Under the pieces are notes generated by a model. That model made no database searches. It was given only the letters and a program-made list of their open reading frames with translations, and had not been told where the DNA came from. From Haliotis cracherodii (taxonomy: Eukaryota), in contig NW_027266267.1 in the NCBI RefSeq assembly GCF_022045235.1, positions 26,350,001 to 26,414,000 on the forward strand: DNA of 64,000 bases, in the 5' to 3' direction. The position numbers and the translations under genes are program-made. Below, in pieces: positions 10,501 through 58,500 of this stretch (the stretch's first letter is position 1; every line of letters starts with the position of its first letter).

Positions 10501-13500
10501 GTGATGGAAGAACATTGAAAATGACAAGGTAGACACAATTTTATGGATAAGAACCAGTCTTGCTTGACAATGGTATAAGGATCTATACCAAAACGTCACT
10601 TTTTTTACAGTATTACAGAAGTTGTTATCCATAAAATTGTGTCTACATTGTCATCCATCAACTTCTAAGTAATGCCTATCAAACAAAACATTGTGAAGTT
10701 TTAACAATGAGAAGCCCAGAATTGAGTCTCTCAACATCATTTTTAGAAGATTTTAGTATTAAACTATGAAATTTATTAGCCATGTATACTGGACAAAACA
10801 TAATTTACAATACTGGGTCTTCAGACAAACGAATTTGGCAACTTGGATGAGAGTATATTTCTAACATGTTCCTTTCATATACTTACAGATCAAGATGCTG
10901 CCAACACCAGCCAAGTTTCACTACATCTTCAATTTGAGAGATTTATCCCGAATCTGGCAGGGTATGCTGACCATTGCTGGTGCGGAGTGCCAGGCTACAG
11001 CTATGATACTGGCTCTGTGGAAACACGAATGTACACGAGTCATAGCTGACAGGTATACATGTGATAGATGAGAAAGATAAACAACAAGGACATGTTCCTC
11101 AATGCTATCGTAGTGCTATGATGATTGTAATTTCCATACTTCAACATAGACTTATGACAGTCGTAGCGCTACAACTGCTTTGTGGAATGGGACCCTGAAC
11201 AGCAAAAGTAATAATAATTCTATATGAAGCATTGTATAAAAGATAAACCTGTTTAGGGTTTTGAGGTTCCAAACATTGATTTTATTTAAAATGAGTGGAC
11301 AGTAAGATGTGACAATGTGACAGTGGTACTGGGCTGGCCGCATGGAACTCTGGGTAGGAGAGTTATTGGCATCATACGACCAAGGCATTTATTTTGTAAT
11401 CTAAGATTTGATAAACACTGTCTTCCAATCTAATCAAGCTGGCAATTAGAATTAGTATTTTGTTACTCATCTGTAAGAAAAACACATGAGCCTTCTCTTC
11501 AGTTTGCCCTTTTGATGTGACATCAGACTCGGAAATTATTTCATAAGCAATTAAAAAACACACAATTGCCAACATACTGTCCATTTAAACAAACCATTCT
11601 TACTGCATTGATAATTCAGTTGTTTGTTGGTATCCTGTCCAAAATGTCTTGGAACACTTGTTTTAGGTGATCTTGGTACGGCAATATTTAATAAGTATTT
11701 GTAATATTGATATTTGAAATTACACACCCTTTTTATCCACCACAACATGTTTTGTGGGGGGTATTTAAATGGACTAATGGTCTGTGAAAGATGCTGTTTC
11801 TGGAGCAGATCTTGAAAACTGTACAATATTTCTTCACCAAACTGTGCACATAGATAGGTCTCATGGAGAACTGGTGCCTTTTGATAGTTTGGGATTTTTT
11901 AAAGAAATAATTTTTCGAGTTTACATGGCAATATTTTTTATGTATCTATTCACGACAAGTATTTACCATTGCAGGGAATATCAATGACTTTGTCCTCTTT
12001 TTGAGATGAAAATGCATTCAAATGGATTTTTTGTTGACAGTATGACTAAATCAGTGAGCTCAACAAGTTATTCAAGGTCTAAACAGAGTCTTACTAACCA
12101 CAAAATATTGCAACCTGTACACACAGACATGACAAATAGACACAAATAATATCACATTAGAAGTAATGGAGTATGGATGTTGGAATCATTGACAAGAAAT
12201 AGAATCAATGTTCTGACATTTTGATACATACAAGGAAATCCCTTTTTATGACAAGCATGAGGCATAACACATTGTATTTCTTTGCTGTTGAAAGAGTGGC
12301 CATCTTGCGAACCCCATTTAAATGCCTTGGACCCCAAAAATGTATTAGCAATAGTCCCAAGGACTTGCAAATATATACCCCTCTCCAACCATTGTTTATA
12401 CAACTGTAAAATCAACGGGAATTGATTTTAGCTTCACTGGTTATCACATGTTAGGTCACATGTGCAATATGCAAATACTTACCGGTACTTCCGGCTCTCT
12501 ACTCAAAGATGTTGATTGTTTTACCGTGTCAGCTGGCTTGACAATGTGGATCAAGGCGATTATTTCAACTTTATTTGCAGAAAATATTCAGATACAAATC
12601 ATGTTTATGTATGGAAATAGTTATTGGAACAGTTATTTAGGACGAAATGTAAAGTTTCATCGTCAAATGCTGGGCTTGCTATTGAACGCCGGTTGACATC
12701 GCCGAAGCTGAAAGTGAAACAACTAGAAAAAATTGTGAGATCTTCGACTCCGTGTATAAGACGACCTCGCTTCTTAACCCCCTCATTCTAGGTACGAAAA
12801 ACTCACCTTATACACATCGATATACGGTAGAGTGAGGTAAAACATTGATAGATCTGATACCACTAGCTGACAAATAAGAATTTGAAATATATACTAAGAA
12901 TTATACACTGACCTTAAACTGTTTCTACAGATTCACCAATGCAGAAGACAAGCATTGGTTTGAAAGTGCCCTGATGCAGGTGTTGCGGAACCAGGCAGGT
13001 GATGAGGCTGTGAGCGTGACAGACCCAGAGCCCTACTTTGTGGACTTCCTCCGAGAAGAGCCGGAACCTACTGGAGAGGAGGACGATGATGCTTCATTAG
13101 AGGCACCCAAGGTGTATGAAAAGGTTGTTAGACTACCATCTTTGTCCCCAGCAACCTATGCTGGTTGTAAGAGGCATACTCTATTTAGTGACTTCATGGA
13201 TAGGAGGGTCAGACTTGGAGACATGGTTAATAGAATACCTTCTTACCTTGACAGTGTGGATCGTTGCACATGTAATATTGCGAAGTGGGAGGTTAACAAA
13301 CATACTTTTTACTTAATTAATTAAGTATATGTAATAATATAAGAAAAATGGAAATAAAAATAAAATGTTCCTATAAAACTTGTTCAGAATATTACATTGA
13401 AAAGTCTCCAAATGCCATTCACATTAAGTAGATATATGGGAGAATTGTCAGTACCAATGGGTTAGATGAAATTGTTTCATAATTACACTTAGATGGGTGT

Positions 13501-22500: not shown

Positions 22501-25500
22501 TCGTTGCTCACAATATTTACCCCTGGTTTGTCTGACCTGGACTCATTATTTTTTTTATCAGGCTGCTGTGGCACAGCGAGAATACTGCTGGCTTTTAGTT
22601 TCAAGGAGAAGCCTTAATTTTAGTGTCTGTCTTAAAAAGTCTTGAAAATCATTGTAATATCTTGAAAAGTTTGAATTTGTACCTAATGATAGTTACTTAA
22701 TTCCTTCGAATACTTTACCTCTATTACATCATAGCCATAAATCCTGCATTTTGGCTGCAGACACACTATAACTAAATCTTCAGATTTTCAACAGAAGTCC
22801 TCTTCACTATCAACTACACACAACTAGTTGTTCCCCTAATAGCACATGTAGCTCTTCAGCCCTTCTGTGCAAAAAGGCGTGAAAAACGTCACTTCTTTCC
22901 TGTTTGTGCCAGAGTCAACATCTGGTGGTTTTTTTTGTGTCTAGCACCTGGTATAAGGTAGTCACACTGTTTATTAATTTCTTCAGAAATGTTATTACGA
23001 TCTGGCTGGATACGGAAGTGTACTGGGGTTGTTTTTTTTTTGTATCTCTGACTATGGCGTCCTCCACTTCCTCACTGACATGTCAGAAGTGTGGCCAGTT
23101 CATGCTTACTTGAGATCCACATAATTTCTGCTGGAAGTGTAGAGAGGCTTCATGTCGAGATAGGACATGTGCTCTCCCCTATCCAAGTCCTTTGACACCC
23201 CAACCAGTTCCAGCCTTGGGATTTGAGATCACGACTTCCAGACAATCACCATGATAGTGGCAAGAACGCCTTACACCGAAACCGACCATCCGAGCCGCTG
23301 AAAAAAACGTAGGTTCCCTCACAGACAGCACGGAAACCACCGGCCAATCCGAAACGTCTGCTACTGTTACCACAAGAAGCCGGTCACCACGTGACTCCCA
23401 CACAGGCTCCCCGGGAGTGGCTAGACAAACCAAAGGTTCCAGCACGGACCACAGAAGGCACGAGGAGTGAGCTTAGTCTTCACACCACCAAGCCAGCCGT
23501 CCAGATTCTGTTACGCCCGACCCTCAGCCAGCGTATCGGCAGATTATACCTGATTCATGGACCCCATCGGACGAGGACGATCTTGTATATGAGCCCATGG
23601 AATCATCGGCACCGGAGCCGGACAACGGAGAGGCACACAATCAATCGGCCACATCACCTCCGCAGGAGTATGGACCACTGCTCCTTTGTGAATATGATAC
23701 ACGCTATATATCACTACATGCCGACCACACAGCCATGGACTGAACAGTCGCCTCCTCCAGAAATGCCCGAGTATGCTGGAAGCCATGCTCCGTTTTCGTC
23801 ATCCCATATCCACGTACTTTACCGTGGCCAAGTTATATCTCCAGGATTCTAGACCAAATGATTGAAACCATGCAGAAGCTCTGTCCCAACTATGAGGAAG
23901 GAAGAAGTTATATCAGAAACTCTGATGTCCATCTGAACAGACCAAGTGGGACTCATCTACAGTCTGCTAGATGCGATTGTCAGCATGCAGGAGGATATGT
24001 TATTTACGCAGGTCTGGACTGCCTCCCAGCTCCTATGGCTTCAACGTCAACAACTCCTGTCTCAAGTCAGATCAAGGGCTGTCTCCAAGCATGCCAAACA
24101 GACGGTTGTTTCAGCCAGTCACATCATCGATGCTCTTTAACAAGAAGCTGGGCACGATCCTGGCAAGGTCAGACAGGACACAACAGAGAGATTACGGCAT
24201 TACGACAAGCCATCTTCAGGTTCTTTTCAGAACTCCAAACGCCGTGGATCTGGCCATAGAGGTTTCAAGTCCGGAGCTCGCCATCAAGACCCTTCTCACC
24301 CTTCTCATCAAACGGGTCATTTAGAGATTGTTGGATACCAACGAAACTCAGGAGTTCTACTCCCCAGTGTTTTTAGTACCGAAAAAGAACTCCACAGAGA
24401 TGAGAATGATCATAGACCTCAAAACTCTCAACAAGAAGTACTTAGTCCCGCCTCCAAGATTTCAGATGGAATCAGTCAGGAAGCTTTGTTCATCACTCAG
24501 AACAGAAGATTGGGTCATCAGCCTCGACCCTTAGGATGCATATCTCCATGTGCCAATCCACCGCATGTCACAAAAGTATTACAATTAACGACCATCGGTA
24601 CGAGTTCCAGGTTCTACCATTCGATATATCAGAAGCCCCTTGATTATCCAGCAGAATAACGGCACCATTCATCAACTTTGCCATCATACAGTGGAAGAAA
24701 CTGTTTCAGTCCTCTAGTCCTTATAATGATAACATACAGCAAACCCCTTAAAAATGGCAATTTTCTACTAGTCCTTATAATACCTTAACTATTGGGCAGT
24801 TTGGCAAGGACTATAGGACTAGTGCCAGTTTTTAACGCTGACATACAGATGGTACGACTTCTGGACGCCAATCAGGAACACACCCAGCTGCATCAGGATG
24901 TGACATTCCTCACCCAACTCATGTCTTATCTCAGGTTCTTCATCCATTTGACCAAGTCAGAGATTTATCCGGTACAAGACATAGTCTACATCGGGACCAG
25001 ATTTCTTCTACGTACCATGATCAACTTACCCCGAGACCAATCTACCAGATCAATCTGATGGTGGATGTCTCTCATGGGAACGCTGTCCTCTCTACAGGTT
25101 ATGACTCACAGAGGCCGTTTACAATTACGCCCTCTACAAAATTGGATCAACTACATACGATCTCAGAACCTGGATACACGGACACTGATACCTCTCCACC
25201 TGCGCCAAGATCTAATCTGGTGGAATCAAAAGATCATGTAATGATGGGGATTGCTCTCACCCTGCCAGCTCCCGAACACCACCTGTTCTTTTAACACCTA
25301 TGACAGGATAATAACTTCCGACATGGAACTATTGAAGGATATAGATGGATTGATGATTGATGATTGGAACACATCCGGTACCGAACAGACTCATGCAAGC
25401 ATTCAGCCGAGAGGATATTCGCATTCCCCGAATCTTCCCCAAAAGGTATTTATCAGTCGTCCTGTCTGCTCTACTACTACTAGCCGCTCCATATGAACCT

Positions 25501-28500
25501 CTTGGAAACGCTACTCTTCTCCAAAAATCCCGAAAAGCAGCATTTTTACTAGCCATGGCTACTGCAGCTAGAGTTTCTGAACTCTGGGCTCTCGACTACT
25601 CCAGTCTCACTCACACTCCCAACTGGACCTTCATCACCTTGCGGTCCTTACCGGACTTTATAGTCAAGAATCAGTCCATGGCCATTGGTCCTTTGGGTCA
25701 CAGACATTATACTCTTCCCACCTTGGCACCTACAGTTCGCCCCGATTATGTTTCTAGGTTTGTCAGCACCATACCCGTGCTCATGGAATTCAGCAGCTAC
25801 AGAAGGTGAGTACACCTATTACCTTGATTTACTAGTATGGTACGTAAGGAATTCAAGGGCTACCTGTGTTAGAACAGCTGATAAACAGATCTACCGGAAG
25901 TGACGTCACAGTCGGAAATAATACAGACCGGAAGTGACGTTTTATCTGGAAGTGACGTCGTAAATGACATCAGAGGTTCTAGAAATGACATCAAAACCAG
26001 TCAAAAAGAAGAATTGATGTCATTAGAATCAGAAGTGACGTCATAACTGGAAGTTGATAAACCGGAAGTGACGTCACTCTCAGAATCTGAGATAAACAAT
26101 GAGTTAGATAGACATCATTTCATGATTCTCAGCAAATAATAAGGTACTTCAAGTGAACGTATCTCATATTGACTGATATAATCATAATACCCGATTTCAA
26201 GTCCTCTAAAAGAGATTCTAGTGTAATTACCTCTTGAAAGGGTTTGATTCCGGTAATGTACAAGAACTCATACGACAGTAGTGGATTGCTGTCAAATACA
26301 CAGGGAGTTAGTAGAGGCAGATCCCGCCTTATCCCTCTGTTATATTCTGGCTATGATGTAATAGAGGTAAAGGATTCGCAGGAATTATCAAACAATAGTT
26401 ATCATTGTTAATAATTCTAAGAATACTACTTATTTTACATCAGGAAGTATTCCCACCCACCTCCCCAATGCATCTGCCTCCAGTGGTGTGATGTTTTGGA
26501 AAGAAGTGACGCTTTTCCCACCTTTTTGCACTGAAGAGCTACATATGCTATTAGGGCAGCGTTGTGTGTTGTTGACAGTCAAGAGGACTTCCAGGGTTAG
26601 AAACTAACAGGTTTTTTCCACTAGCCCTCATAATGATAACATATAGAAAAACCCTTAAAATGGGCCAATTTCTACTAGTCCTTAGGATAATACCCTTACT
26701 ATTGGGCAGTTTGGTAAGGACTATAGGACTAGTGCCAATTTCTAACGCCGACATCTGTTGAAAATCTGAACATTTAGTCATTGTGTGTCTGCAGCCAAAA
26801 TACAAGATTCATGGCTATGATGTAATAGAGGTACCGGTAGTATTCTTAGAATTATTAACAATGATAACTTATTGTTTGATGTTTATAATAGTATTTTGAC
26901 AAACACTTTTTTCCTGTTGTCAGTAATAGTATAGTTACAAATAGTTTTCATCAATATGTTGAAATGTTAAAAGTACTTGTCACTTGAGCATTGCACTCTC
27001 AGATTAAGAGATATAATTACTTCTCGTCAGTATATACTTGGTGGATCTTGTATTAAATAGTTTATTACGAATGTTGGTCGTGTGCTCTTGGCCTATCAGC
27101 CATGCAAATTATGGTAGTGTATGACATCTATTAAGGTGTTTGTATTAATTGAGAAATTATTTGTTTACTTAGGCTATTATATTTGTTATGAAAGGTGTTG
27201 AAAATGTTATTTTTATTCCCTGAAAAGCCTTGAAAAGGCTGTACACATTAATGCTCAATATCTGTATGAACGCTGTATAGGTAGGTGAGAAGTTCCGCAA
27301 CAGAGCCCTAAAGTTCCCTGGTCTGATATCTGGGTGTACAATGGACTGGTTCAGCAAGTGGCCCCGGGATGCCCTGGTGGCTGTGTCTGGCCACTTCCTC
27401 AACAACTTCCCCATGGAGACGTCTGAGGAGATTAAGCAACAGGTGGTCAACACAATGGGAGTTGTACACGACAACGTAGCTGCGGTCTGTGTGGAGTATT
27501 TCCAGAGGTGACAGTAGATTGTCTAGTAGTTAATGTGTTTGCTCGTCATACTGAATGTCCCTGTTTAATTCCATATTTGGTAAATGTGTGAAGCAATATT
27601 CTGGTATTCCCAGTCGGAATATTGCTGAAACATATGATACCTGCATTACTATTGGCTTTCCTCCAACATGAAACTGACATGTCATGATGTGACTGAAATA
27701 CTAATCTATGCAATTTGGATATGATGACAGGCATGAACCAAGTTGGAACCCCTTGACTTGACTACGTAGATCAATGCTTATGATGTCAGTCGCTGGATTG
27801 TCTGGTGAAGACTCGATTATTTACAGACCACTGTCATGTAGCTGGAATATTGTTGAGTGAGGCGTTAACAACAAACAAACAAACTGTTCAAAGTGGTCAT
27901 TGACTCAGTCACTAATTAAAGATAGTATCCCAGTTGTTTGATTACAGGTATTCAAATGTTGTGTTTTTGTCGTCTTTATTAGTGTCTATGTTACGTATGT
28001 AATTGATAATGATTTTAAAAACACAGTGCCAGTAGGAAAAATGTAAGTTTCATCTGAAGCTATGAACCAATCTTCCATTGTATATGTCATGAAACTCATA
28101 CGATATAGTTCAGTAGTTTCTTGATATTATATTAAGTGCAATATATGGATAATTATGTAAGTAATATACGAGTGAATCGTAACGGCCCTAGTAAATACCC
28201 AATGAAGCTTTTTCAGCATGCGCACAAAGGAGCTAATTTCTGAAACACAATTACGAGCTAATTTACTTTCCAAGCCAAGGCTATATATTTAGAACAGTTA
28301 TGTACATCTAAAACATTATTTCATTTTTTTAAATCTGAAAATGTTCACTAATTTGGGGAAAAAACCAATAGATTGATGAATAGATGAGTGGACAAATATT
28401 GGTTACCCAATGAAAAATGTAATAACCCAATTAAAATAGAAACCCTTAAGTAAAAACTCAATTGCTCAAAAAGTTATCTGGAGCTCTGTATAATTTATGA

Positions 28501-34500: not shown

Positions 34501-37500
34501 AAAATGCATTACAATAAACATTATTGATATTGTGTATATATGCGTCTTATGACCCACACTTCTCTGCTATGCAATTTGTTCAAGTGTTTTATGTAAGTTT
34601 TCAAATGTGTTACTTGTATTTTTTACTTATCCTTCATTACTCCTTAATGCATTCACTGCTTACCTCATGACAACAAGGACAGTGCAACGGCGATGGTCCT
34701 GGGTGAAGAAATAAAGTTGTTGTTCTGAAGTCCCACTTTTACTGACCACCGCCGTTGGCATGTGACCTTAATGGCACCTAAGGTCACCTTCTTCACATCA
34801 CTGCCTGTCGCGCTACAGCAAGGACGTGGCCCAGCGGAGCACTCCTTTTGGATTAATTTAGATCTTCAGTTTTTGTCTACAATTCTGAAATAAATTTGCG
34901 ATGGGTGATGTATTCCTTTCATATCATATATGATCCCTGATATCTTTTTTTCTGGTTTGGTTGTTTATTTTGAAGTTTTGAAGATTAAATGTTATGTTTG
35001 TTTCAGGCTAACCTGGCCAAGCAGGCAGGACGGTTAGATATTGCCACAAAAGAGCTGGACAATGCCCAAGCGCAGCTAGATGATAAGCAGAGGGAATTGG
35101 ATGTGGTGCAGGCACTCTATGATTCAGCCATGAAAGAAAAACAGGTAATACAACACAGTAGAACATGGTTGTTACTGACATCAGATAATTAATATACACA
35201 TGGTCTAAAGAAGCTAATTCTTACGAAACTTCTTCATCTAATACATCTTTGCCATTAATCCTGTATTTTAGCTTCAGTAACACTAACTAAAATTTTCAGA
35301 TTTTCAACAGACGTCCTCTTCACTGTCAATCACACACAACTAGTTGTTCACAAATTGCATCGTAACCACTCAAGCTATGACATTTGCAATGGCGGGAACC
35401 TCACTTCTTCCCTGTGTGTGCTAGAGTCAACACCTATTGATATAGTTGTAACGATCTGGCACTTGTTAGTTAGCCACATTAATCTAAGATTATTCAAATA
35501 GTTTTCGGGGGCACAGGTGGCCCAGTCGTCTAAGGCGCCGCGATTCGCTGTGCAGAGTTGCGTCCCTTGGACACGCCAGAAACCTATGATTGTGGGTTCG
35601 AATCCCGGTTCACCCCAATTATGTTTCTAGGTTTGTCAGCACCGTACCCGTGCCCGTGCCCGTGCCCGTGGGTTTCACCGAAGTGGTAAACGTCTGAGAC
35701 CTGCATCACTTCGGGCTTTCCTCCCACATTAAAGCTGACACGCCGTGATATAACTGGAATACTGTTAAAAGCGGCGTTAAACCCAACTCACTCACTCACT
35801 CACTCAAATAGTTTTCTCTAAAACAGACCCAGTAAGTAGATATTAATAAGATTGCTAACTGATGTGACGATCACACGCACATGAGTATAAGCTGGTGTTA
35901 GATGTTGCTGTGAGGTCGTAATGGAGTCTCACTTTACTCCCGGTTGCAAGAAGTGTGGTCGGTTTATGATCACATGAGATCCTTATCTTAACTGCATGAG
36001 GTGCAGAGGTTCTACCTCTACATAGGAGGTTAGGTGTGAGTAGTGTGCCAATACTTCAAAGAAAGCCTTGCAAAAGTTAGCTGAGGCTATCACCAAGGCT
36101 AAGAGGCGTGAAGCAGCTAAGAAGAAAGTAGAAGTCATCACCGCAGCCGACACTGTTCAGGCCACTGCCTCATCCCCAGCGCCTCCTCTCTCCAATCCCA
36201 GTCGACCGCCAGCAGAACAACCATTTTCTGCACTCTCTATGAGCATGCTACAAGATCTCTTCAAGCAGCAACAAGACATGATGAAGGCCATGTTTGAGAC
36301 GAGGTTCTCAGCCTTAAATGAGGCAATGAAGAGGATGAGACAGGCAGCTCTCCAGATCAAGAGTCCCCAGGTCAAGAGACTGCATGGGAGACAGCCATCT
36401 GCCTCTGCAACACACACCGTGTAGGGCCTACCCCAGCCGACCGTACCGACCAGCCAACCGTACCAACCAGCCAGCCAGCCAGCCGTCCAACCAACCTATC
36501 AGCCTTACGGCCAGCCAGGATTAAGCTTGCAGGCTTTTCCCTACCGTGATACACAGGCAGCTAGGTCTTCGCTTGGGTCCAGCAGGGAATCGCCAGGCTA
36601 TACTCCCCAGCTAAGACACCGTACAGTCGCCGCATGGACCCCAAGGCAACCCAGCCGACTGACCAGCCGTCCACCCAGCCGACCGTTAAGAAATCGTATG
36701 GTTGCCGCACAAACCCAACGGCAACCCAGCCGACCGTTAAGACACTGTACAGTCGCCACATGGACTCCACGGCAACCCAGCCCGCTGGCTGGCCATCCAC
36801 CCAGCCGCCCGTTAAGACACCGTACGGTTACATTATGGACTCTTTGGTAAACCTATGGACCATCCAGTCGATTGGCCTACCATATGACCTCCATCAACAG
36901 GTAGTACCCGAGCCAGCCGCACGGACCACATGGGACTGCACGGACCACACGGGACTGTCCAACCGACCATTATGCTGACCGAGATGAGCATTACCCTACG
37001 GGACCTGTTGACCACGGGCAGCCATCACAAGCCGCACAGACGTTAATCATACTGGAATCCTGGACACCGGTGGATGAGGAATCACACTGGGAATACATGG
37101 CAGACTACCATGAATATCAACCCCCCACTGGAGCTACCCACGGTCACTGGGAGGTGGAAGCAGAGTATTATGAAGACATTAATCAAGCTGATGACTCACC
37201 CCAGTGGGGTTATACGGAGAGATATACGTTTGTGGAACTCATCGAGGAATTATATCACCTCATGCGTGTACTCCAACCTCCTTTGACAAAAAAATGCGCC
37301 ACCTGAGATGCCGGAATATGGGGGATGTCATGCTCCTAGTTTTGGTCAGTCAAACTACAAGAAATGAGGAGTCAGAGGTGAATGCAGATTCTGACCTCCC
37401 TGCCACCCACTCCGACATTATAGACCCTTTTGACCAAGATATGTCTATGGATTGCGATTTACGCCTACCGTTTTTCAACATATTACCAACTCCGGGACCA

Positions 37501-40500
37501 GTGGGAGGGCGCCTTCTGTCATATGCCGAAAATCCGAAGCAAGTTACGCCGGACCGCTGGATTCTAGACGTCATGGCTAACGGATACAAACTGCTATTCA
37601 AGGAACATCCTATCTTGAAGAATCAACCCTATGGACACAGATTTGATCCAGTCTTAGCCAAGCTAGCGGCAGCAGATCTGTCTGTCAGGAAGCTTTTTAA
37701 GAAGCGAGCCATTAGGAGACTAGCGGAGACCAACAAGACCAAAGGCTTTTATTCTCCGGTATGCCTAGTCCCGAAGAAGAAAACGACCGACATGAGGAAG
37801 ATAATCGACTAAAGATCCTCAAAAAGACATTCCTGAAACCTCCGCCAAAATTCTTGATGTAATCTGTACAGAAGTTATGGTCTAAATTGAAGACAGGAGA
37901 CTGGCTCATCAGCCTTGATCTACATGATGCCTATCTCCACATTCCGATACACTCATCGTCACTGAAATATCTGTGCTTCGTGATCAAAGGTCGGGGTTAA
38001 GAGTTCCAGGTCTTACCATTCAGGATATCAGTAGCAAATATAACGGTAATTCTAGTGAAAGTATCACATATTTGATCGATTCTTGAGACATTCTGATTTT
38101 CAAGGCATCAGGGGGAAATTCGGAGGAAATTTATCTTGAGTTAGGATTAGAATCAGAGAATAATGGTTTCCAGAAGAGATTACTGTCAATTACACAGGGA
38201 GTTAGTAGAGGCAGATCCCATCGGACCCCTGTGGTATATTCTGGCCAAGATGTAATAGAGGTAGAAGTTTCATAAGAATTATCGAACAATGGTTATCATT
38301 GTTAATAATTCTAAGAATACTACATCTATTACATTGGAAGCTAGTACTCCCACCCACCTACCCAATTCACCTACCTCTAGTGGTTAGATGTGGGAAGAAG
38401 TGAGGTTCCCGCCATTGCATACGTCATAGCTTGAGTGGTTACCATGCTACTTGGCAACAACTAGTTCGTCTGTGTAATTGTCAGTGAAGATGATGCCTGT
38501 TGAAAATCTGAAAATTTTAGTTAGTTTGACTGAGGCCAAAATACAGGATTTACGGCAAAGATGTAATAGAGGTAGTATTCTTATAATTATTAAGAATTAT
38601 TATTATCTAGAATTCCAAACTGAGTGACCTAGGATGGCAAATTTGGAAGAAAAAAATTGTTTTGTTCAAAATTGGGATTTTGTGAAAAGTTCTTGTTTTC
38701 TTCATTACCATTGCAGTCAATGCAGTCCATCTATCCGTAATCTTTTCTTTTCCAGATCACAACTCGAAAACCGTTCAAAATTTTTACAAAACATATGGCA
38801 GATCTATCAAACAGATCCTGAAGTGGTACCTTTTGCTATTTGCAGCTTTTGGGCATTTATATTTTTTTTCGATTTCCATGGAAACAATTTGGACTTAGTC
38901 TCAAAAGGGGGTGGTGGATTTTGTTTCCAGAGCACAACTTGTAAAACCATGAAAGACTTTTCATCCATACCTGGTACATATATTAACTAAGGGCTGTAGT
39001 GGTGCCTTTGGCTATTTAGGATGTTTTCAGAATTTCATTTTTCCATTTTCTCATAGAAACCAGTAAGATTTAGCTGAAACAGAGAGAGGTGTCATTTCTA
39101 GAGCAGAACTTAGAAATTTTCATCAAAACTTGGTACATGTATTAATCAGGGGCTGAAGTGGTGCCTTGTGCTATTTAGGAATTTTTAGAAAAATAATGTT
39201 TTCCCCATTTCCATGGCAACAAGTTTGACTTTGACTCTGTTCATGATATGTTTATCTCACCTATCGACACATACTATATTAAGCCTCCTGTTCCAATAAG
39301 CCCATGGCAAATATTGTCATACTTGTGTTACGATAAGATACTTTTTTTCTCTCATTTTTGTGTGAAATTCTCCATTTTCTGGATGGCCCAAAAATCTAAG
39401 CATGTACGTATGAATGCTTGGGGAATCCATGGTAGACAAGGTTTTGTGAGTAACAAACAAGGGATAATATGAAAAAAATCAGCAATCCATGGAGTTTTTT
39501 ATTATCCTGTTTTACTGTAGCTCCTTGAGGGTGTGCTCTCAACTGGGTATCCTTGACCAGTAGCATGTTGTATGAGTGAACAGTTTTCAAATATGTGAGT
39601 TCTTTGGGGAAGTTGAAGTGTTGGATTACTGATGTTATTTCATGTTTGACTTAAGGAACTGATGGATGATGCTGAGTCTTGTAGAAGGAGAATGACAGCA
39701 GCCTCAACTCTTATTGGAGGTCTTGGAGGAGAAAAGACCAGATGGACGTCTCAAAGCAAAGAGTTCAAGACTCAGATTGACAGGTAGTCACTTTCATATA
39801 GCTGGATCCATGTTACTGTATAAATTGAATTGAAATATTCAAGGGGTCCTTATCATAACCCTAATGTTAGAACGTAAAGATTCCTGGCCTCTAGATTCAG
39901 GGTTTGCCCCAACCTTTTAAAACTGGGGGTCATTATGACTCCTTAGGTGTAATACAGGGAGTCATATGTCTTTCAAAGGGGGTCATATTAATAAAACACT
40001 AATTGATGTTACATATCATAATGATAGGAAATACAACTACCCCACTAGGCAACTATTGAAACTTCTTTCTGATAGCGTCTGAGACCTGCATCACTTCGGG
40101 CTTTCCTCCCACATTAAGCTGACACGCCGTGATATAACTGGAATACTGTTAAAAGCGGCGTTAAACCCAACTCACTCACTCACTCACTCTTTCTGATTGG
40201 CTGCAACTGAGAGCTTGCCAGTAGGTCTGTTCCATTTTTAGACATTAGGATTTCCAACATTAGACAAAGCTGATATCAGTCATATTTTATTGTCAAGGGA
40301 TATGTCCTTTTCAAATATTAATGTTTCGACCATATAGTGCAATTGATTGATTTTGACTGTCTGAATGATCTGCATCTTCTTGACTGATGCAATGGAGAAA
40401 TGATATTGCGTATTTTCTCCTTAGATTGAGTCAAATACGCAGGTTTTTTGCATCAGGGCAAACCCTGCTCTAGATCAACTACTATAGCAGAAATCATCAA

Positions 40501-46500: not shown

Positions 46501-49500
46501 CTGATTTCCAAGAATTTATGGATGGTACATCATCGCCCATTATAGATGGTAATTTTAATGTTTAATGCACTGAACTCTGAGTGTCTTACCAGAATAAATT
46601 TGTCAGATGTGTAACTTGCAATCTACAATTTTGATTGGTTTTAAGAGCTATACCGATTTGGAGTCCCCTAATCCTTGCAATGTTAATTACTCATGTTCAT
46701 TCTCAATTTGTGTGGATGTAGGATGCAGGATTTTGCATTTCGGTAAAACCATGAGATGGCATGGATGATCAACCTCTTTATTACCGGTACAATAGCAGTG
46801 ATGATTCTATTTGGATTCCAACACCATTATCCAGCTAGTGATCATGTCACTTCAAATGTGATGCAGAAGATGACCATCTGTATCACTTTGTCATTTTGCC
46901 CTTTATTGGTTGCCATGTGGGGATTCCGGGTAAGAATACAAACCCCTAGCAACCTATTCTTGTCGTAAGAGGCAACTACATGAATTGGGTGGTTAAGCTT
47001 GGTAACTTGGGTGAGTGAATGATCACATCACGATGGAGTGGATCATTGCTCACATCATCAATCACTGCAGGGTTCCTACATGCTTGAAGAGGCCTTGAAT
47101 TCAAAGGTCCCACTTGAAAAGACTTGATATCTACTGTCAGCCGTGAAAAGCGTTGAAAACCACCAATAATACCTTGAAAAGACTTGAATTTGTATAACAG
47201 TACAAAAAAAACTTGTTAATAAAAGTGTTAAAAAACACTTACATATGTATCAAGGATGTTTAAGTATGATTAATCACTGTGATAGATTTGTGTGCCAAAG
47301 AGGTTATGACACTTAATTTATTTTTGTTAATTGTGAAAATTTGTGATATTCATACTGCACTTGAGGTCTGCACTATGTTCAAGTGCACTGTGACGTCAAA
47401 TCAGCGTAATGGTATAACAGTACTCTTGAAAATCACATTTGTGAAACCATTTGAGTAAATTATACAGCTCATCTTTGGACTTTTGTATTCTATCATTTAA
47501 AAAAGCCTTGAAAATGACTTTCATATCTGTATGAACCTGCACTGGATTAACTGTTCCAGACACGATTGTGCCACAGTGCAGCATTGATTTCAGTGGTATA
47601 TGTTATTTACATTAAATTGTATTGTAGGATTTGGTGACATGTTTGTCTGATGTTGCAGGTGAGTGCCAAAACCTCCATCATTGACTTCACTGTCACCATG
47701 AAGGGTCTGGAGGACCAGCTGCTGGGTAGAGTTATCCTCACTGAGAAAAGTGTAAGAGAAGGATAGAAAAGTAGTATTTTATCAAGTCTGCCACAGGATG
47801 CTTATATAGATGTTTAGGTGTGCCCTTTACAATTGAAGTGTACCAACTAGAAGGATAACTTTAATCTTTCATCAAATTTGGCAAATATCATTTCACCTTG
47901 GCTGGATGATCCGCACTTGAAACTTTTAAAGTTTGGCCCCTTCCTATTTATCATTGACATCAATAATCATGTTAGTACCCCTTTCTCTTCTGAATCCCCA
48001 TATTCATATGTTCATTTTTTTCTGTGTTGTCATGTTTATTTGTGGTTTCATGTTATAAACATTATATGGTTGCCCTACAGGCAAATGAAACATAGTGTAA
48101 CTTTCTTAAACATTTTTTGGGCAATAAAATTCAAGGCCCTTAGTCTGTGAAAATTTAGTTAAACTGCAAAGAAATATGTATACAGATAATTTTAAGAACA
48201 TGTACATATTAATTCTTATAATGACATCATGCAATCTGGCTACAGATAGCGTAGTCATGGAACTTATGATGCCTGCATATAGCCCAGTCATGGATGCCTA
48301 CAGATAGCCTAGTCAAGGATGCCTACAGATAGTCTTGTCATGAAGCTAATAATGCCTACAGATAGCTTAGTCATGGAGCTAATCATACCTACAGAAAGCC
48401 TAGTCATGGACTCCTACAGATAGCCTAGTCATAGATGTCTACAGATAGCGCAAACATAAAGCTTAACATGCCTACACATAGCCTAGTCATGGAGCTTATG
48501 ATGCATACAGATAGCTTAGTCATGGATGCCGACAGATAGCCTAGTCATGAATGCCTACAGATAGACTAGTCATGGAGCTTAAGATGTCTGCAGATAGCAT
48601 AGTCATGGACTCATGGTATCTTCCCTTGACCAATATCTTAGCAGCCTTTCAAGATAATGTGTGATCTATGGATAATACCTTGTAACATATTCAAATTAGC
48701 TAGAGATAATCTCATGATAGATTGTAAATCCTTTGTGGTCTAATATTCAGGGAATATATTGATCCTATTGTTGATCATTTATTTTATCTGTACCACAGTG
48801 ATGTTGTTTTTGCTACAGGAGCTGGAAGCTGAGCGTGCGCAACTGTTGGTTGATGTGACAGCCAACAAACGTAAGATGCAGGAATTGGAGGATAACCTGC
48901 TGTACAAGCTGACCAGCACAAAGGTAGCTGACAACATCCTTTACTTAGTGTTCTATTAACTCACCTCCCATAATGCTTGTACAAGCTGACCAGTCATAGG
49001 TAGCTGCAGCTGACAACACCCTTTACTTAGTGTTCTATAAACTCATCTCCCATAATGCTTGTACAAGCTGACCAGCACAAAGGAAGCTGACAACATCCTT
49101 TACTTCGTGTTCTATTAACTCACCTCCCATAATGCTTGTACAAGCTGGCCAGCACAAAGGAAGCTGACAACATCCTTTACTTAGTGTTCTATTAACTCAC
49201 CTCCCATAATGCTTGTACAAGCTGGCCAGCACAAAGGAAGCTGACAACATCCTTTACTTAGTGTTCTATTAACTCACCTCCCATAATGCTTGTACAAGCT
49301 GACCAGCACAAAGGTAGCTCACAACATCTTTTACTTAGTGTTCTCCCACCCTTAAACATAGCTGCACAACGTTTAACAGTGGAACAGCTAGAGAACTTAT
49401 CCCCATACACTTGTGACATGTGGCCATGAATTTCTTGGGGGTACTTTTCTCTTAAGTCAAAAACTTCATGACTGCTCATTACTTGTTCTTTTCCATTTCT

Positions 49501-52500: not shown

Positions 52501-55500
52501 TACCGTGTGTACATAACACTGGAAATACCATGTCAACAAATCCGTAATGAAGTACGCAGATTAAAAATATAATTACACTGTCTGGTTACAAAAAGTGTTC
52601 ATTGTATATCTGGACTTATGTTTGAAACCTATTTTCATAATTTTATTTAAGATATCATTCAATTGTTGAATCGTGTGTAAATTGATCGGTAGATCGCACA
52701 ACTCATCATGATTTACAGCAACCATGGTCAGATGACATTATTGACGCCTTGAAATGAACTTTAGCTGACAGAGAATGGATACATATATCATAAATGCCAT
52801 ACTTTGATTCGTTAAAAGTCCTATTTTTTGTAGTTTGACTGTTACACAATAACACTGAGTTTTCTAGAGCAAATGCGGGAGCCTGGACAGTGATATTATT
52901 CCATGCATAAAAAATATCCAGCAATAGCAATAAGCTGTATCAAAGTTAGGGAAACGCTTCTGGTCATTATTAGTTTAGACATATAATAATAAAGCTGCTT
53001 CTAAAATGACACAATATTGGAATATATTATTCCTGATAAAATAATAGTTTCAAGTACAATTCTTCCGATTACTGCATCAAAATTCTTTAAGGTTATATCT
53101 TGGGAAATTTTTAACTGAATCATTGGTAGATTGTGAGAAAACGGGTGTACAGCAGATTGCTGATTCCGGCTCAGTTTACAAGAAATACACACGGTTATCT
53201 GAATCTCTTTTAAAACTGGAAGTACAATGTTAACAGTAACTCATCATGTCTACTGATGTTTTATTTCAAATTTCAAGTGAGACCTGCACTGGGTACCCGG
53301 GTAGGGTCAGGTAATAGGGGGATGGGTACCAGGGTAGTAAATTCGGACTCGTCCCAGCCTTAATAGAGGGGATGCGCATTATACAATTGACATAAATGTA
53401 CAACGAAAAAAGTATTGTTTATTGTTTTTTTACCTGTTTTAACAATCGTAGCAGTGCTGTGGTAAATATCTAAAATGAAAAACAAGATTGTTCCAAGATA
53501 GACACAATTTTTATGGATAACAACTTCTTTAATACTGTAAAAAGCAACGTTTCGGTATAGACAGTCTTGCTTGACAACGGTATAAGGATCTATACCGAAA
53601 CGTCGCTTTTTACAGTATTAAAGAAGTTGTTATCCATAAAAATTGTGTCTATCTTGTCATCCGTCAACTTCTAAGTAATGCCTATCAAACAAGTTAAGAT
53701 TAATCCATTAAATTCCATTCAGTACTCTGTGTACTCTTCAGTTTTGCCAGTACTCCTATACTGAAGTAATAAGGAGTACAGACTCCTGATGCTGAAATAT
53801 TATCTGGAGCCCTGAGATATGATAGAAAACCAGTACAGAGACTTCCTCAGCCTTTTTGAAGTATTTCGTATAACCAAAATGTTTAAAAATTACAGCTGTC
53901 TTGTCTCGTCTTTTCAGATCTGAGAAAAGTCCAGTTCCATCTAAGAGAATTCACATAATCATTAATTACTTGACGTTTGAAGCCTTCCGTTACACATGCC
54001 GAGGGTTGTATGAGGAACACAAGTTCCTGTTCACGTTGTTGATGACACTGAAGATAGATCTTCAGTATGGCAAAGTGAGAAATGAGGAGTTCCAGACTTT
54101 CATCAAAGGTAAACCATTACTGCCATGGATGTCAAACCACTTTTCACAGGGCATTCTTGGGCCATCCATTCAAATTAAACTCATCTTTCATGATTGCAAC
54201 TAACCAGTCACCAGGACTGAACTCGCCTTCTTGTGTGGCGTCTAGGATAGAATCAGAAATTGTTGTAGCTGGAGGACTTCCTTGCAACATCAAAGCTACA
54301 GATAAGCTGCGTATCTGCTTACATTACAATACCCCCAAATATATTCAAAACCCAATTACTTTCAAGTAACTTGCATACAGAAATGCATGCATTAAATGAA
54401 AAACTCAAATCTATAAAAACAGCATATGTAAAATATCCAATGAAGCTTTTTCAGCATACGTACAATGAAGCTAATTTCCGAAACAATATTACGAGCTAAT
54501 TTGCTTTCCGAGTCAAGCCTATATTTAGAACCGTAATAATTCATCTAAAACATTATTATTTTTCTGAAATCTCAAAAAAAGAGCTCATTTGGGGAAAAAC
54601 CCAATAGAGTGATGAATAGATGAGTGAAAAAATATTGGTTACCCAATGAAAAATGTAATAACCCAATTAAAAGAGAAACCTTCAAAGTAAAAACTCAATT
54701 GCTCAAAAAGTTATCTGCAGCTTTGAAACATTCTTGGAGAGTGTTAGCATTTTGTCTACAAGCACCTATATCCATAGTCAAGAAATGAGCAATTTCATAG
54801 TTTTTCTGTTCTGTCCTACTTTCACTTTTGACATCAAACTGATTTCATAACAGTGTTTGCAGTGTTAGAAACTGCAACTAGTCCTGTAGTCCTTGTCAAA
54901 CTGCCAAATAGTTAAGGTATCATAAGGACTAGTTGAAATTTGCTATTTTTTAAAGAGTTTTTTGTGTATTATCATTATAAGGACTAGTACACTAAATTTG
55001 TTAGTTTCTATCGCTGGTTTGTGTGTATCTGTATTGCAGAATCAATAAATGAGAGAAATTAGATACGTTCGCCACTTGACAGAACTACTGTATTAAGTGC
55101 TCCCTAACCACTTTCTAGACCCTTCTGCCTGTAATCTTTATAACTGCCCTCTACTAGAGCTAATATACACTCTCAAATAACTATTGTATCTGTGGTACAA
55201 TAATGGATACAGATTAATTTCCTTTTGTTAATCATCAATGTAATGATGATGGTCATCGTTTACTTTAATCACTGGTAGCGTACATGAGCGGAAAAAACAT
55301 ATGTCTATGTGATTGCTACAACAGTATTGATTTTGTCATCTATTTAATGCTTTGGGTTTTTTTTAGCACCCACCCTGTCAATCTCCAAAGTTTTCTGTGT
55401 GTTTTTTAAGGTGAATACAGTGCTTAAAGTTGAAATTGCCTGTTGAAAGGTGGGGCTGCTCTGGATCTTAATGCTGTTCAACCCAAGCCCTGCAGGTGGA

Positions 55501-58500
55501 TATCTGACATGACTTGGCTAAATCTGGTGCAGCTGAGCTCTCTACAGCAGTTCTCTGAGATTCTTAATCAGGTGAGTCTTGCAGTCCACTGCAAATCAGC
55601 CACCACTACCGGTAAATGCTAAATCTGTAACAACTTCTTGGCAGGGGAATATAGGAATGGGTGCTATCCTTCTGTCCATCCATCCTTCTCTCTGTCACAT
55701 TTCGTTTCCGGAGATGGTGTTAGTTTGGGATTTAAAAAAAAAATATTTCTCAAGTTTCCCTGGCAACGACTTTGACTTAGACTGAAAATGGCAGTAGTCC
55801 TCGTTTCCAGAGCAGATCTTGAAAACCGTACAATATTTCTTCACCAAACTTGGCACATAAATTGTAATAATTTTTTAATTTGAAGTTTACACGATATACG
55901 GCTTTTCCATTGGACGAGAGGTCGGTCACATGACCACGAAATTGACGTTCATAAGTGTATGAACGACACAATTTGACGTTCATACGTTTTTCACGAGACC
56001 GTGTTCTTGAAATGACGTAAACACTGACGGACTACTTCCACATTGCTGGGGAAACCCCTGGGAATTCCCTAGCACGAAAACATGCATAAGCGTTCTTTCT
56101 GATCATTCAGAACCTTTATTCTTGGTCTCAGCGTTTTAGTATGCATTGAGAAATGTCAGAGAGCGTGACTGCATGATTGTTCACGAATATCCTCGCAACG
56201 GCCCATCATAATGAACAAACGAACAAATGCACATCTATTTATTCACCTTTCAATGATCGGCCAGTTGATCAATGATGACTAACACATGTAACCGCCACAG
56301 GTTCATTAACAACTTCGGAAATCTCTCCCGTCATGTTTATCGTGTTGGCCATTTTGACATCTTGTACTTGATGTAAATGTATTACGACGTGTTGTCATTG
56401 TGACTGACTTACTGATGTAGTTCTTTACAGACCTTTCTCATCTAATGAGGATATGATTTGAACAAACGTGCTGCTTAAGATGTTTCTGAAGAGCAAGTTG
56501 TGCATCCATACGCCCATGTCACCTCTCTTTTTGAGGAACTATAGCTGGTTGTTGTATGGCTGTCAGTGTAAACATTAAGTTACACGTACTAAATAAAATT
56601 GTGTTTAGATCTTGGCCTACATCCTTTGAGGTAAGAAATTGTGATAAAAAATTATAAGAATTGACTTTCACTTTGTGTGAGTTCATTGGAGTATGAACCT
56701 TCATAGAGTGAGCGCCAAACATTGTATAAACGTCATCGCAAGCTCCGACGTTCATACAGTTTGGCCCTCACTCTATGAAGGTTCATACTCCAATGAACTC
56801 ACACAAACTGAAGGTCAATTCTTAAGTAAACAAAAAAGCATTGGATAGATTGCAGAATGAAAGACACACCGTGTAGAAAACATTCACGGTGATGGACTCA
56901 AGGTGGCTCACTTGAATGTTCAATCTCCCAATGCTCATTTCCAAGATGTGAAGAAGGATAAGTTTGTTGGAGTCGTTCATGTTTTGTGTTCCACAGTAAC
57001 ACACATCAATGATTACAGTAAAAGAGACCTGCAAGGATATCAAGTATATGCAGGAGTCACTACACACGGTATTGCTGTGTATGTTTCAACAAGTTTCAAG
57101 AACAGTGTCCAGCTATGTGATGTAATGTCATCCCACAGTATTGAATACATTTCCTTTTGTTGGCAAGTTGTGCATTGCTTGTGTGTATCTTCCTCCAAAA
57201 GTGTCATTGACACGGTTGTAACATTCACTTAAGGCCCCATTACACAGGGCTGCAACTTTTGTGCGATCAAAAACTGGCCTGGTCGCTCAATGGTCGCCTA
57301 AACCCTGAAAATCATGTTTCTATGTAACTGCTCCAGCAGTTGTTCAGCAGTAACTGCTCAAGTTGTTCAGCGTCTGCAACCACAATAAAACACTGTAGCC
57401 CTCTATTTATAGGCAGGCTGAGGAGGCACTACAGGTAGCTCAAAGGAGGCAGAAGCATTGCTATGGTGTCTCAAGGGTTGCCGTAGTAGCCGAATGAGGC
57501 ACGATGGCCGCCATACTCATCGTTCAATGCACGCTGTTGGTCGCCCAAAGAAGGCACAAGGGAGGCAGAAGCATCGCCCAGATTTACGGGACAATATTTC
57601 AACAGAACAGAATCTATTACCTGGTGACCATTGGGCGACCACTGTGCCTTCATTCTGCAACAACGGCAATGCTTGTGCCTCCCTTCTGCCTCCTTTGAGG
57701 CACCTTTGAGCAACCAACCTCCTCGGCGACCTTTGTGCAACTGTTTTGAACATGTTCAAAAATTCACGGCGTCCATGGCAATGTCTGAACCTCCTGTGCA
57801 CCACCTTGGAACGACCGAGGCAACCATTCTGCCTCCTTTGAGCCTCCAATGACGACCTGATCAATTCTATATGGTTGCACACGTGAGGCACAAAGGTCGC
57901 CATCCTGTGTAAAGGCCCCATTACTGATTTCATGCAGAAACTTCAGGATCTCTTCAAGCAGCATGAATGTGAACATGTCCTAGTTACTGGGGATTTCAAC
58001 TGTGATCTGAGTGAAAAACTGAAACTTGAAGATTTCTTTAATGTGCGGAAAATGACTCAACTCTTTCACTCCCCAACTCACTGTCTTGGAGCTACACTGG
58101 ACTTGTTGTTTACTGATCCTGCCAGTGCTGTAGCAGTCTAGACTCCAGTCTACTACTCAGATCATCAGATGATTGGTGCTGTACTTCTCAGTATATCTCA
58201 TGGTGACCCCTGCTCTCAATGATCTCTAAGTAAAGTAAGAACTCCCTTACTTCTCTGATTATTGTTTAAGTAATAACACAACTCATTTCAAATACAGTTA
58301 CATATTCTATCATAAAGTGCAGATGGCAATACACACCAATAATAACTTTCTTAGTGCTGCAATTAGGTCATTTACAAAAAGGTTCTGTGAACATAGTTCA
58401 CAGCATCTAATGCATTGCACACAACTGGACATGTCATATTGGTAGGGAATATAAGTATTTCATGCTTGTTAGAACATGCATTTGTTCACTGCTCATGCTC

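What the first reader, a model, noticed from the sequence alone, without database searches (positions are those of the whole stretch)
53494..53692. Non-canonical minimal hammerhead ribozyme (U3:A8 covariant, loopless palindromic stem III) in a small Penelope-type mobile unit
Seen: + strand gc-UUGACAA-c-GGUAUA-aggauc-UAUACC-GAAA-CG-UC-gc (53569-53606), preceded by a 68-bp inverted copy of its own 3' part. Established: the hammerhead core is CUGANGA-stemII-GAAA-stemIII-UH; C3 pairs with G8 in the active fold and a U3:A8 swap is compensatory; Penelope pLTRs carry short-stem-III hammerheads that cleave as dimers through a palindrome; inverted 5' pLTR fragments typify Penelope insertions. Inference: a retrozyme-like family that CUGANGA-based searches would miss, with U3:A8, an extra nucleotide after A9 and ACGU dimerisation. 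It lies in sense within the dynein pre-mRNA, where the upstream antisense arm would sequester GAAACGUC and act as a built-in off switch. Caveat: stem I is only ~2 bp here.
Basis: partly seen in the sequence, partly recalled or inferred. Interest (0 to 1): 0.75.

Follow-up and report, generated by a model that had tools for sequence, protein, structure and literature searches.

The report
Ordinary Penelope fragment with minimal hammerhead
This is one of many short scraps of what is likely a Penelope-type jumping gene, sitting in an intron of a dynein gene; it carries a predicted self-cutting RNA motif of a variant form published in 2014, which is likely silent here, so it is ordinary.

Summary
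It lies in sense in a dynein heavy-chain intron.

It is not new. Cervera and de la Pena 2014 (PMC4209133) describe the U3-A8 core (about 1,300 hits in Schistosoma, one family in a Penelope element), the extra base, the loopless palindrome and 2-bp helix I forms. Craig 2021 describes the inverted 5'-truncated copy and a 30-40-bp tail as the Penelope signature; both window copies have them (tails 36 and 32 bp), each between 6-7-bp direct repeats. Public reads show a high-copy family with fixed ends and some 50-52-nt tandem hammerhead units.

The arm is predicted to mask the core, but it is best read as an integration by-product: copy 2's arm misses the core, and published lone minimal hammerheads do not cleave. 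Not shown: cleavage, stem II covariation, a linked RT/GIY-YIG gene, circular RNA. Verdict: new member of a known kind; interest 0.17.

The parts
53484..53489 (+). left copy of a likely 6-bp target-site duplication (AAGATT)
   Evidence: sequence; empty-site joint 53483 to 53696 in contigs of 3 of 4 runs laid, with 4-6 letters fitting either side (shorter side only 28-30 letters)
53494..53561 (-). inverted, 5'-truncated copy of the element (reverse complement of 53589-53656); lacks the 5' half of the core
53562..53692 (+). forward copy, 131 bp, of a high-copy Penelope-type repeat (family consensus may run to about 53695)
   Evidence: second copy in window; raw-read depth about 280 against 0-2 on the unique flank, loose ends at 53562-53566 and 53692
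53569..53606 (+). minimal type I hammerhead motif: 2-bp stem I, U3-A8 core, extra C, 6-bp stem II, GAAA, loopless ACGU palindrome, predicted cut after C53604
   Evidence: match to the published consensus in PMC4209133
53657..53692 (+). 36-bp 'tail' present only on the forward copy
   Evidence: 30-40-bp tail described in PMC8557442 and PMC11167929
53696..53701 (+). right copy of the likely target-site duplication (AAGATT)
10521..10686 (+). second family member: 34-bp inverted arm (10521-10554) that misses the core, forward copy 10555-10686 starting at the same base, 32-bp tail, AACATTG on both sides; G12 changed to A, 4 of 5 CpG sites of copy 1 changed
53918..54108 (+). next exon of the host axonemal dynein heavy chain gene (DNAH5/8 type); the element ends about 225 nt before its acceptor

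Best explanation
This is a short, non-coding insertion that was likely made by a Penelope-like retrotransposon from the ribozyme-bearing end (pseudo-LTR) of its RNA, and its minimal U3-A8 hammerhead motif is predicted to be inactive at this locus. Shown: a 131-bp high-copy repeat with fixed ends, an inverted 5'-truncated copy in front, a 36-bp tail behind, short direct repeats around it, and a full minimal-hammerhead pattern. Inferred from published Penelope work: a GIY-YIG/RT protein supplied in trans nicked AT-rich DNA and began reverse transcription at two sites about 35 nt apart (tail end 53692 and about 53656), giving the forward copy with its tail and the inverted copy without it. The template was uncleaved RNA, since the cut site is intact in the copy. 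Inferred: both window copies and many others stop at 53562-53566 because the RNA begins there (initiator-like site) or an intron ends there. In the parent element the motif would cut after C53604 only when two motifs pair through ACGU, or with help from the element's protein. Here it has no partner nearby and the arm, transcribed first, would pair over stem II and the core. That masking is a by-product of integration, not a designed switch.
For: Architecture: inverted copy plus tail in 2 of 2 window copies equals the Penelope signature of PMC8557442. Direct repeats of 6 and 7 bp around the two copies and an empty-site joint in 3 of 4 runs. Motif meets the published consensus point by point, including U3-A8 (S. 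mansoni family 4, in a Cercyon element) and 2-bp helix I (6 of 56 rows of fig. S3, among them GC/GC in Oikopleura); 0 of 588 simulated windows. Cut site to 3' end is 88-91 nt; in the anole element PAc it is 85-92 nt from the numbers in the text (cut 26 nt, RT start 111-118 nt into the ORF), though I could not tell whether that is the outer or the inner start site. Both direct repeats hold ATT, the cut motif PAc prefers. Family-wide: depth about 280 against 0-2; 3' loose ends at 53692 without common flank (agreement 0.40-0.43) in 4 of 4 runs; none of the 40 best-supported differences falls in 53562-53606, four fall in 53607-53653. Fold: G10.1-C11.1 probability 0.00 with the arm, 0.999 without. 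Lone minimal hammerhead did not cleave; PAc hammerhead needs protein and is not needed for insertion.
Against: No Penelope RT or GIY-YIG frame found: 0 of 130 open frames of 75 aa or more in the window (one scanned in part), and no genome is held, so the link to an autonomous element is inferred only. No stem II covariation seen: the two window copies have identical stem II, and one search shows only 40 of 240 differences, without linkage. The only paired change in copy 2 (C53578 with G12 becoming U with A) would extend the hairpin at the cost of catalytic G12, although both are CpG transitions. Stem I is 2 bp, the low end of published forms. The 3' end is AC-rich but is not predicted to fold into the stem-loop reported for PAc. 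The empty-site joint has short sides at 80% likeness and may come from a paralogous repeat, since the flanks are themselves low-copy repeats.
Confidence: 0.75

Rival explanations
1. Same Penelope origin, but the hammerhead of this family is a catalytically dead relic or only a protein-binding fold, even as a dimer.
For: Stem I of 2 bp; weak duplex through the palindrome (-3.1 kcal/mol); published dimers of minimal hammerheads cleave poorly, 8 of 9 Xenopus dimer elements did not cleave, and PAc inserts equally well with a dead ribozyme. Copies keep the cut site intact.
Against: All core positions fit the consensus, with U3 and A8 changed together, which needs past selection on that pair; 50-52-nt tandem units at other loci would supply a partner.
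Confidence: 0.13
2. A non-Penelope repeat (MITE, SINE or fold-back) with a plain 7-bp hairpin that resembles a hammerhead by chance.
For: No coding partner found; no Rfam hammerhead match; the C-G to U-A change in copy 2 keeps a 7-bp hairpin; a 21-nt stretch after the core is 18/21 identical to another repeat family in the window.
Against: 0 of 588 simulated windows hold the pattern; arms differ in length between copies (68 and 34 bp), unlike fixed terminal repeats; tail and spacing match Penelope; 4 of 5 CpG sites changed in copy 2, so CpG decay explains the paired change.
Confidence: 0.07
3. One reading: a retrozyme-like unit whose antisense arm is a selected, built-in off switch that protects or regulates the dynein pre-mRNA.
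For: The arm is predicted to mask the core (gap 16.9 kcal/mol against 5.2 without it). Both sense-strand intronic copies in the window are disabled, one by pairing and one by G12A. Tandem hammerhead units exist at other loci. PLE-derived ribozyme repeats are depleted in Xenopus introns.
Against: n = 2; G12A is a common CpG transition; copy 2's arm misses the core; 6 of the 15 joints shown link the element's start to opposite-strand ends at 53620-53654, downstream of the core (geometry only partly resolved); a lone motif is not expected to cleave, so there is little to switch off; nothing suggests the arm can be released.
Confidence: 0.05

Closest known systems
Minimal hammerheads (min-HHR) of metazoan Penelope-like elements, U3-A8 type of the Schistosoma mansoni Cercyon element (Cervera and de la Pena 2014, PMC4209133)
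   Same: U3-A8 core, extra base between 9 and 10.1, G10.1-C11.1, long helix II, palindromic 15.2-16.2 with no loop 3, mostly single dispersed copies, pairs on opposite strands close together.
   Different: Different sequence family and host; helix I 2 bp rather than 3-5 (as in the D. virilis, Culex and Oikopleura rows, which have C3-G8); no ORF link shown here.
Penelope-type insertion structure (Craig et al. 2021, PMC8557442; Frangieh et al. 2024, PMC11167929, anole PAc)
   Same: Inverted 5'-truncated copy directly 5' of the forward copy, 30-40-bp tail at one end, AT-rich target holding ATT, similar distance from cut site to 3' end.
   Different: No coding region; in PAc the ORF starts at stem II, here the frame from that place stops at the third codon; no predicted stem-loop at the tail end.
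Animal non-LTR retrozymes (Cervera and de la Pena 2020, PMC7229834; Li, Clavereau and Pollet 2026, bioRxiv 10.64898/2026.07.22.740005)
   Same: Small, non-coding, AT-rich, type I hammerhead, likely Penelope-derived; tandem units near the 51-bp lower size limit of Li et al. occur at other loci of this family.
   Different: This locus is a single unit with an inverted arm; the hammerhead is minimal, without loop 1-loop 2 contacts; no circular RNA shown.

Membership tests
PLE minimal hammerhead (PMC4209133) | Core CUGANGA or its U3-A8 variant, GAAA, UH | tested here: met
   UUGACAA 53571-77, GAAA 53597-600, UC 53603-04; variant described
PLE minimal hammerhead (PMC4209133) | Extra base (A, C or U) between 9 and 10.1; G10.1-C11.1; helix II longer than 4 bp | tested here: met
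   C53578; G53579-C53596; 6 bp, pair probability 0.999 without the arm; consensus line
PLE minimal hammerhead (PMC4209133) | Palindromic 15.2-16.2, helix III absent or tiny | tested here: met
   C53601 G53602 within ACGU
PLE minimal hammerhead (PMC4209133) | Short helix I (usually 3-5 bp, 2 bp in some) | tested here: met
   2 bp GC/GC; 6 of 56 published rows have 2 bp
PLE minimal hammerhead (PMC4209133) | Core conserved and helix II covarying across the family | tested here: inconclusive
   No difference in 53562-53606 among the 40 of 240 shown; two window copies have identical stem II, copy 2 has G12A
PLE minimal hammerhead (PMC4209133) | Self-cleavage as a dimer | not testable with these tools
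   needs in vitro transcription
Penelope-like element insertion (PMC8557442, PMC11167929) | Inverted 5'-truncated copy directly 5' of the forward copy | tested here: met
   2 of 2 window copies
Penelope-like element insertion (PMC8557442, PMC11167929) | 30-40-bp tail at one end only | tested here: met
   36 bp and 32 bp
Penelope-like element insertion (PMC8557442, PMC11167929) | Repeat flanks an ORF with telomerase-like RT and GIY-YIG nuclease in full-length copies | not testable with these tools
   No genome held. In the window itself none of 130 frames has such a domain, as expected for a truncated or non-autonomous copy
Non-LTR retrozyme (PMC7229834) | Head-to-tail repeats of 150-450 bp at the locus | tested here: not met
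   single 131-bp unit with inverted arm; 50-52-nt tandem units only at other loci
Non-LTR retrozyme (PMC7229834) | Canonical type I hammerhead with 6-bp helix I and loop 1-loop 2 contacts | tested here: not met
   helix I 2 bp, no loop 3
Non-LTR retrozyme (PMC7229834) | Expressed as monomeric circular RNA | not testable with these tools
   no raw-read RNA run was available; contigs cannot show ends or circles

The most novel reading that the evidence does not exclude
The family is an active U3-A8 ribozyme system in miniature: 50-52-nt head-to-tail units act as natural intramolecular dimers (among the smallest retrozymes), the mass of about 130-bp copies running from a fixed RNA start to two fixed RT start sites is an in vivo record of internal priming on uncleaved RNA, and selection lets sense-strand intronic copies persist only when an inverted arm or a core mutation has silenced them.
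Probability: 0.1. Interest if true: 0.5.

Novelty: new member of a known kind. Interest (0 to 1): 0.17.

Why it matters
As it stands, little: it adds one more family to a class counted in thousands of copies per animal genome since 2014. It is a tidy textbook example (arm, tail, target duplication, minimal core in 210 bp). It could be useful as test material, because I found no cleavage test of a U3-A8 Penelope hammerhead in what I could read (searches; Lunse et al. could not be opened), and because the family's fixed ends allow the internal-priming model of PMC11167929 to be checked in another animal.

Tried and rejected
Own genome: none held, so no family alignment or covariance model could be built. 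Rfam at E up to 10: only miRNA-type hairpin matches far below gathering score, no hammerhead. Metagenome scan for stem II plus 3' core: 2 loci, both lack the 5' core and share nothing else; chance; a promoter scan on one of them told nothing. Prokaryotic genome scan: 0. Viral scan for a loose U3-A8 pattern: 66 loci, 10 of 66 with a stem of 4 bp or more, none resembling this family outside the pattern; not followed. A 36-codon open frame across the element: one hit among 1.84 billion proteins, a repetitive spurious protein; rejected as ORF evidence. Repeat family at 5440, 35758 and 40142 sharing 18 of 21 bases after the core: no hammerhead core in front of it; taken as unrelated. Loose-descriptor hit at 12538: no G-C closing pair, long bulged stem; taken as chance. 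Sequencing runs: no RNA holder listed; run X13 is RNA only by guess, and although one of its contigs covers just the dynein exon, contigs show no ends, strand or circles. Homolog search with the exon confirmed dynein but did not place the organism. Earlier scan notes: nothing by sequence or place; the 8 shown of 358 by words concern other elements. Lunse et al. (PMC5785218) is not held; supplementary file 1 of PMC4209133 was not searchable and the supplements of the 2026 preprint were not seen; either may bear on how widely U3-A8 forms are already listed or tested.

Full report
1. The observation. The inverted arm 53494-53561 mirrors 53589-53656 over 68 nt with one mismatch, which faces C17. 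A loose descriptor finds 0.03-0.065 hits per shuffled window (200 shuffles); a strict one modelled on the published consensus finds 0 in 588 simulated windows and 1 in the real window. That descriptor was written after the motif was seen, so the figure is generous, but the pattern is not easily chance. Rfam does not recognise it.

2. The setting. The window is one long axonemal dynein heavy chain gene of an animal on the + strand: Pfam dynein domains in order from 1.3 to 61.5 kb, exons mapped by tblastn from 39.6 to 64 kb, and the exon after the element matches DNAH5 at E 6e-20. The element is in sense in an intron of about 2.4 kb and ends about 225 nt before the acceptor.

3. A second copy. 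At 10521-10686 lies a 92%-identical copy, also in sense. Its forward part starts at the same base and ends at the same base. Its inverted arm is only 34 bp and covers sequence downstream of the ribozyme motif. It has lost G12; 4 of the 5 CpG sites of copy 1 differ in it by a transition. Each copy sits between short direct repeats, AAGATT and AACATTG.

4. The family. No genome is held, so I laid 4 of the 21 listed public runs on 53251-54150 at 80% likeness. Raw DNA reads reach a depth of about 280 on the motif against 0-2 on the unique flank, so there are likely hundreds of copies or more. Loose ends pile up at 53692 with no common flank in 4 of 4 runs. At the 5' side, ends pile up at 53562 with a partly shared upstream sequence ending in a pyrimidine-rich run and CATT (agreement 0.51-0.61, 3 runs), and at 53566 with no shared flank (106 and 110 contigs, agreement 0.37-0.38). 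With that upstream letter the start reads as an initiator-like word or as a CAG splice acceptor (both labels from my own knowledge; the D. virilis intron ends at the same place relative to its hammerhead). A joint from 53483 to 53696 in contigs of 3 runs gives the empty site, with the 6-bp repeat present once; its sides are short and the flanks are low-copy repeats, so it may be a paralogous copy rather than an empty allele. None of the 40 best-supported differences (of 240) lies in 53562-53606, while four lie in 53607-53653; the family has C at position 17, so the arm's mismatch is private. Several joints go back from 53594-53606 to 53561-53564 with 4-21 letters between, which gives head-to-tail units of 50-52 nt, each with one motif (1-4 contigs per row, runs X1 and X11). 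Six of the 15 joints shown (of 143) are between opposite strands, five of them linking 53564-53569 with 53640 or 53654, likely other inverted arms that stop downstream of the core.

5. What is in print. Cervera and de la Pena 2014 (PMC4209133; I read parts 1-2 of 4 of the text and parts 1-2 of 3 of supplementary file 2) define the minimal hammerhead of Penelope elements: long helix II, short helix I, an extra base between 9 and 10.1, G10.1-C11.1, palindromic 15.2-16.2. They report the U3-A8 core in the Cercyon element, about 1,300 hits with a descriptor made for it, pairs on opposite strands 100-700 bp apart, and 2-bp helix I forms (6 of 56 rows in fig. S3). A single motif did not cleave; dimers cleaved weakly. 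Craig et al. 2021 (PMC8557442; 12 passages) describe the inverted 5'-truncated copy and the 30-40-bp tail. Frangieh et al. 2024 (PMC11167929; parts 1-2 of 4) show that the anole element primes reverse transcription at two internal sites whose gap is the tail, prefers to cut at ATT, has a hammerhead that cleaves only with protein present, and inserts without cleavage. Cervera and de la Pena 2020 (PMC7229834; part 1 of 6 and 12 passages) define retrozymes as tandem repeats with canonical hammerheads; Li et al. 2026 (bioRxiv; parts 1-3 of 5) derive them from pLTRs, with units from 51 bp, and found cleavage in 1 of 9 dimers. A 2019 review (PMC6765202; 6 passages) restates the dimer model; Lunse et al. 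I saw only as a title in its reference list (one search failed).

6. How it most likely works. Shown: the anatomy above. Inferred: a Penelope RT/GIY-YIG protein from elsewhere in the genome nicked an AT-rich site and copied an uncleaved RNA from two start sites, one at the tail end (53692; 88-91 nt after the cut site, against 85-92 in the anole element, without knowing which of its two sites that figure refers to) and one about 35 nt upstream, giving the forward copy with tail and the inverted copy without. The copies stop where the RNA starts or where an intron ends. In the parent, the motif would cut after GUC when two motifs pair through ACGU or when the protein helps it fold. At this locus it has no partner, and the arm is predicted to pair over it: G10.1-C11.1 falls from 0.999 to 0.00, and the gap to a core-open fold grows from 5.2 to 16.9 kcal/mol.

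7. Against this reading. No RT or GIY-YIG domain in 130 window frames and no genome to search; no covariation seen; stem I of 2 bp; no predicted stem-loop at the tail end; the paired change in copy 2 fits a plain 7-bp hairpin as well as CpG decay; no cleavage or RNA-end data. Collection scans gave no further copies and the 36-codon frame over the element has no credible relative.

8. Verdict. It works like, and by sequence and structure is filed as, a Penelope minimal hammerhead of the published U3-A8 type in a truncated or non-autonomous Penelope-type insertion; the ORF link and catalysis are untested. This locus is not a retrozyme by the 2020 definition. New member of a known kind; interest 0.17. 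The boldest reading left open (active 50-nt tandem dimers and a selective filter on sense intronic copies) gets probability 0.10.

Noticed in passing
other loci, seen as joints at window 53594-53606 back to 53561-53564 (runs X1 and X11): Head-to-tail units of 50-52 nt, each holding one minimal hammerhead of this family; they could act as natural dimers and sit at the lower size limit reported for retrozymes.
   Followed up: partly
window 53562-53566: Both window copies and over 100 contigs per run start here; the shared upstream sequence makes the site look like an initiator (with an AT-rich run about 25-30 nt upstream) or a splice acceptor. Unresolved.
   Followed up: partly
window 53278-53359: A different high-copy repeat (raw-read depth about 100) whose family ends in CTAG at the 3' side; Helitron-like end by recall, not tested.
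   Followed up: no
window 53430-53490 and 53696-53820: The target of the insertion is itself a low-copy repeat (contig depth 70-600 against 11 on the exon).
   Followed up: partly
window 5202-5464, 27628-27702, 35507-35805, 40076-40189: A SINE-like repeat family ending in (GAGT)n on the minus strand, sharing 18 of 21 bases with the stretch after the hammerhead core; no core in front.
   Followed up: partly
window 9331-10340, 15490-16033, 24141-25809, 37195-38035: Decayed retroelement pieces related to each other, one with a weak RVT_1 match (E 0.006); DIRS-like with a tyrosine recombinase remnant at 25357-25809 by recall, not tested.
   Followed up: no
window 56676-56803: A long hairpin (Rfam MIR1428-type match at 39.8 bits, far below the gathering score); likely a MITE or fold-back.
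   Followed up: no
window 56861-58138: Remnant of an AP-type endonuclease frame (Exo_endo_phos E 0.0004); likely a decayed LINE.
   Followed up: no
window 48237-48612 and 48901-49344: Two tandem arrays in dynein introns, the second with a period of about 77-80 bp.
   Followed up: no
L035, L050, L053, L058 about 301-339: Four viral contigs share one identical stretch that fits the loose U3-A8 pattern with a 6-bp stem II; L037 has another with 7 bp. Probably chance inside coding DNA; not examined.
   Followed up: no
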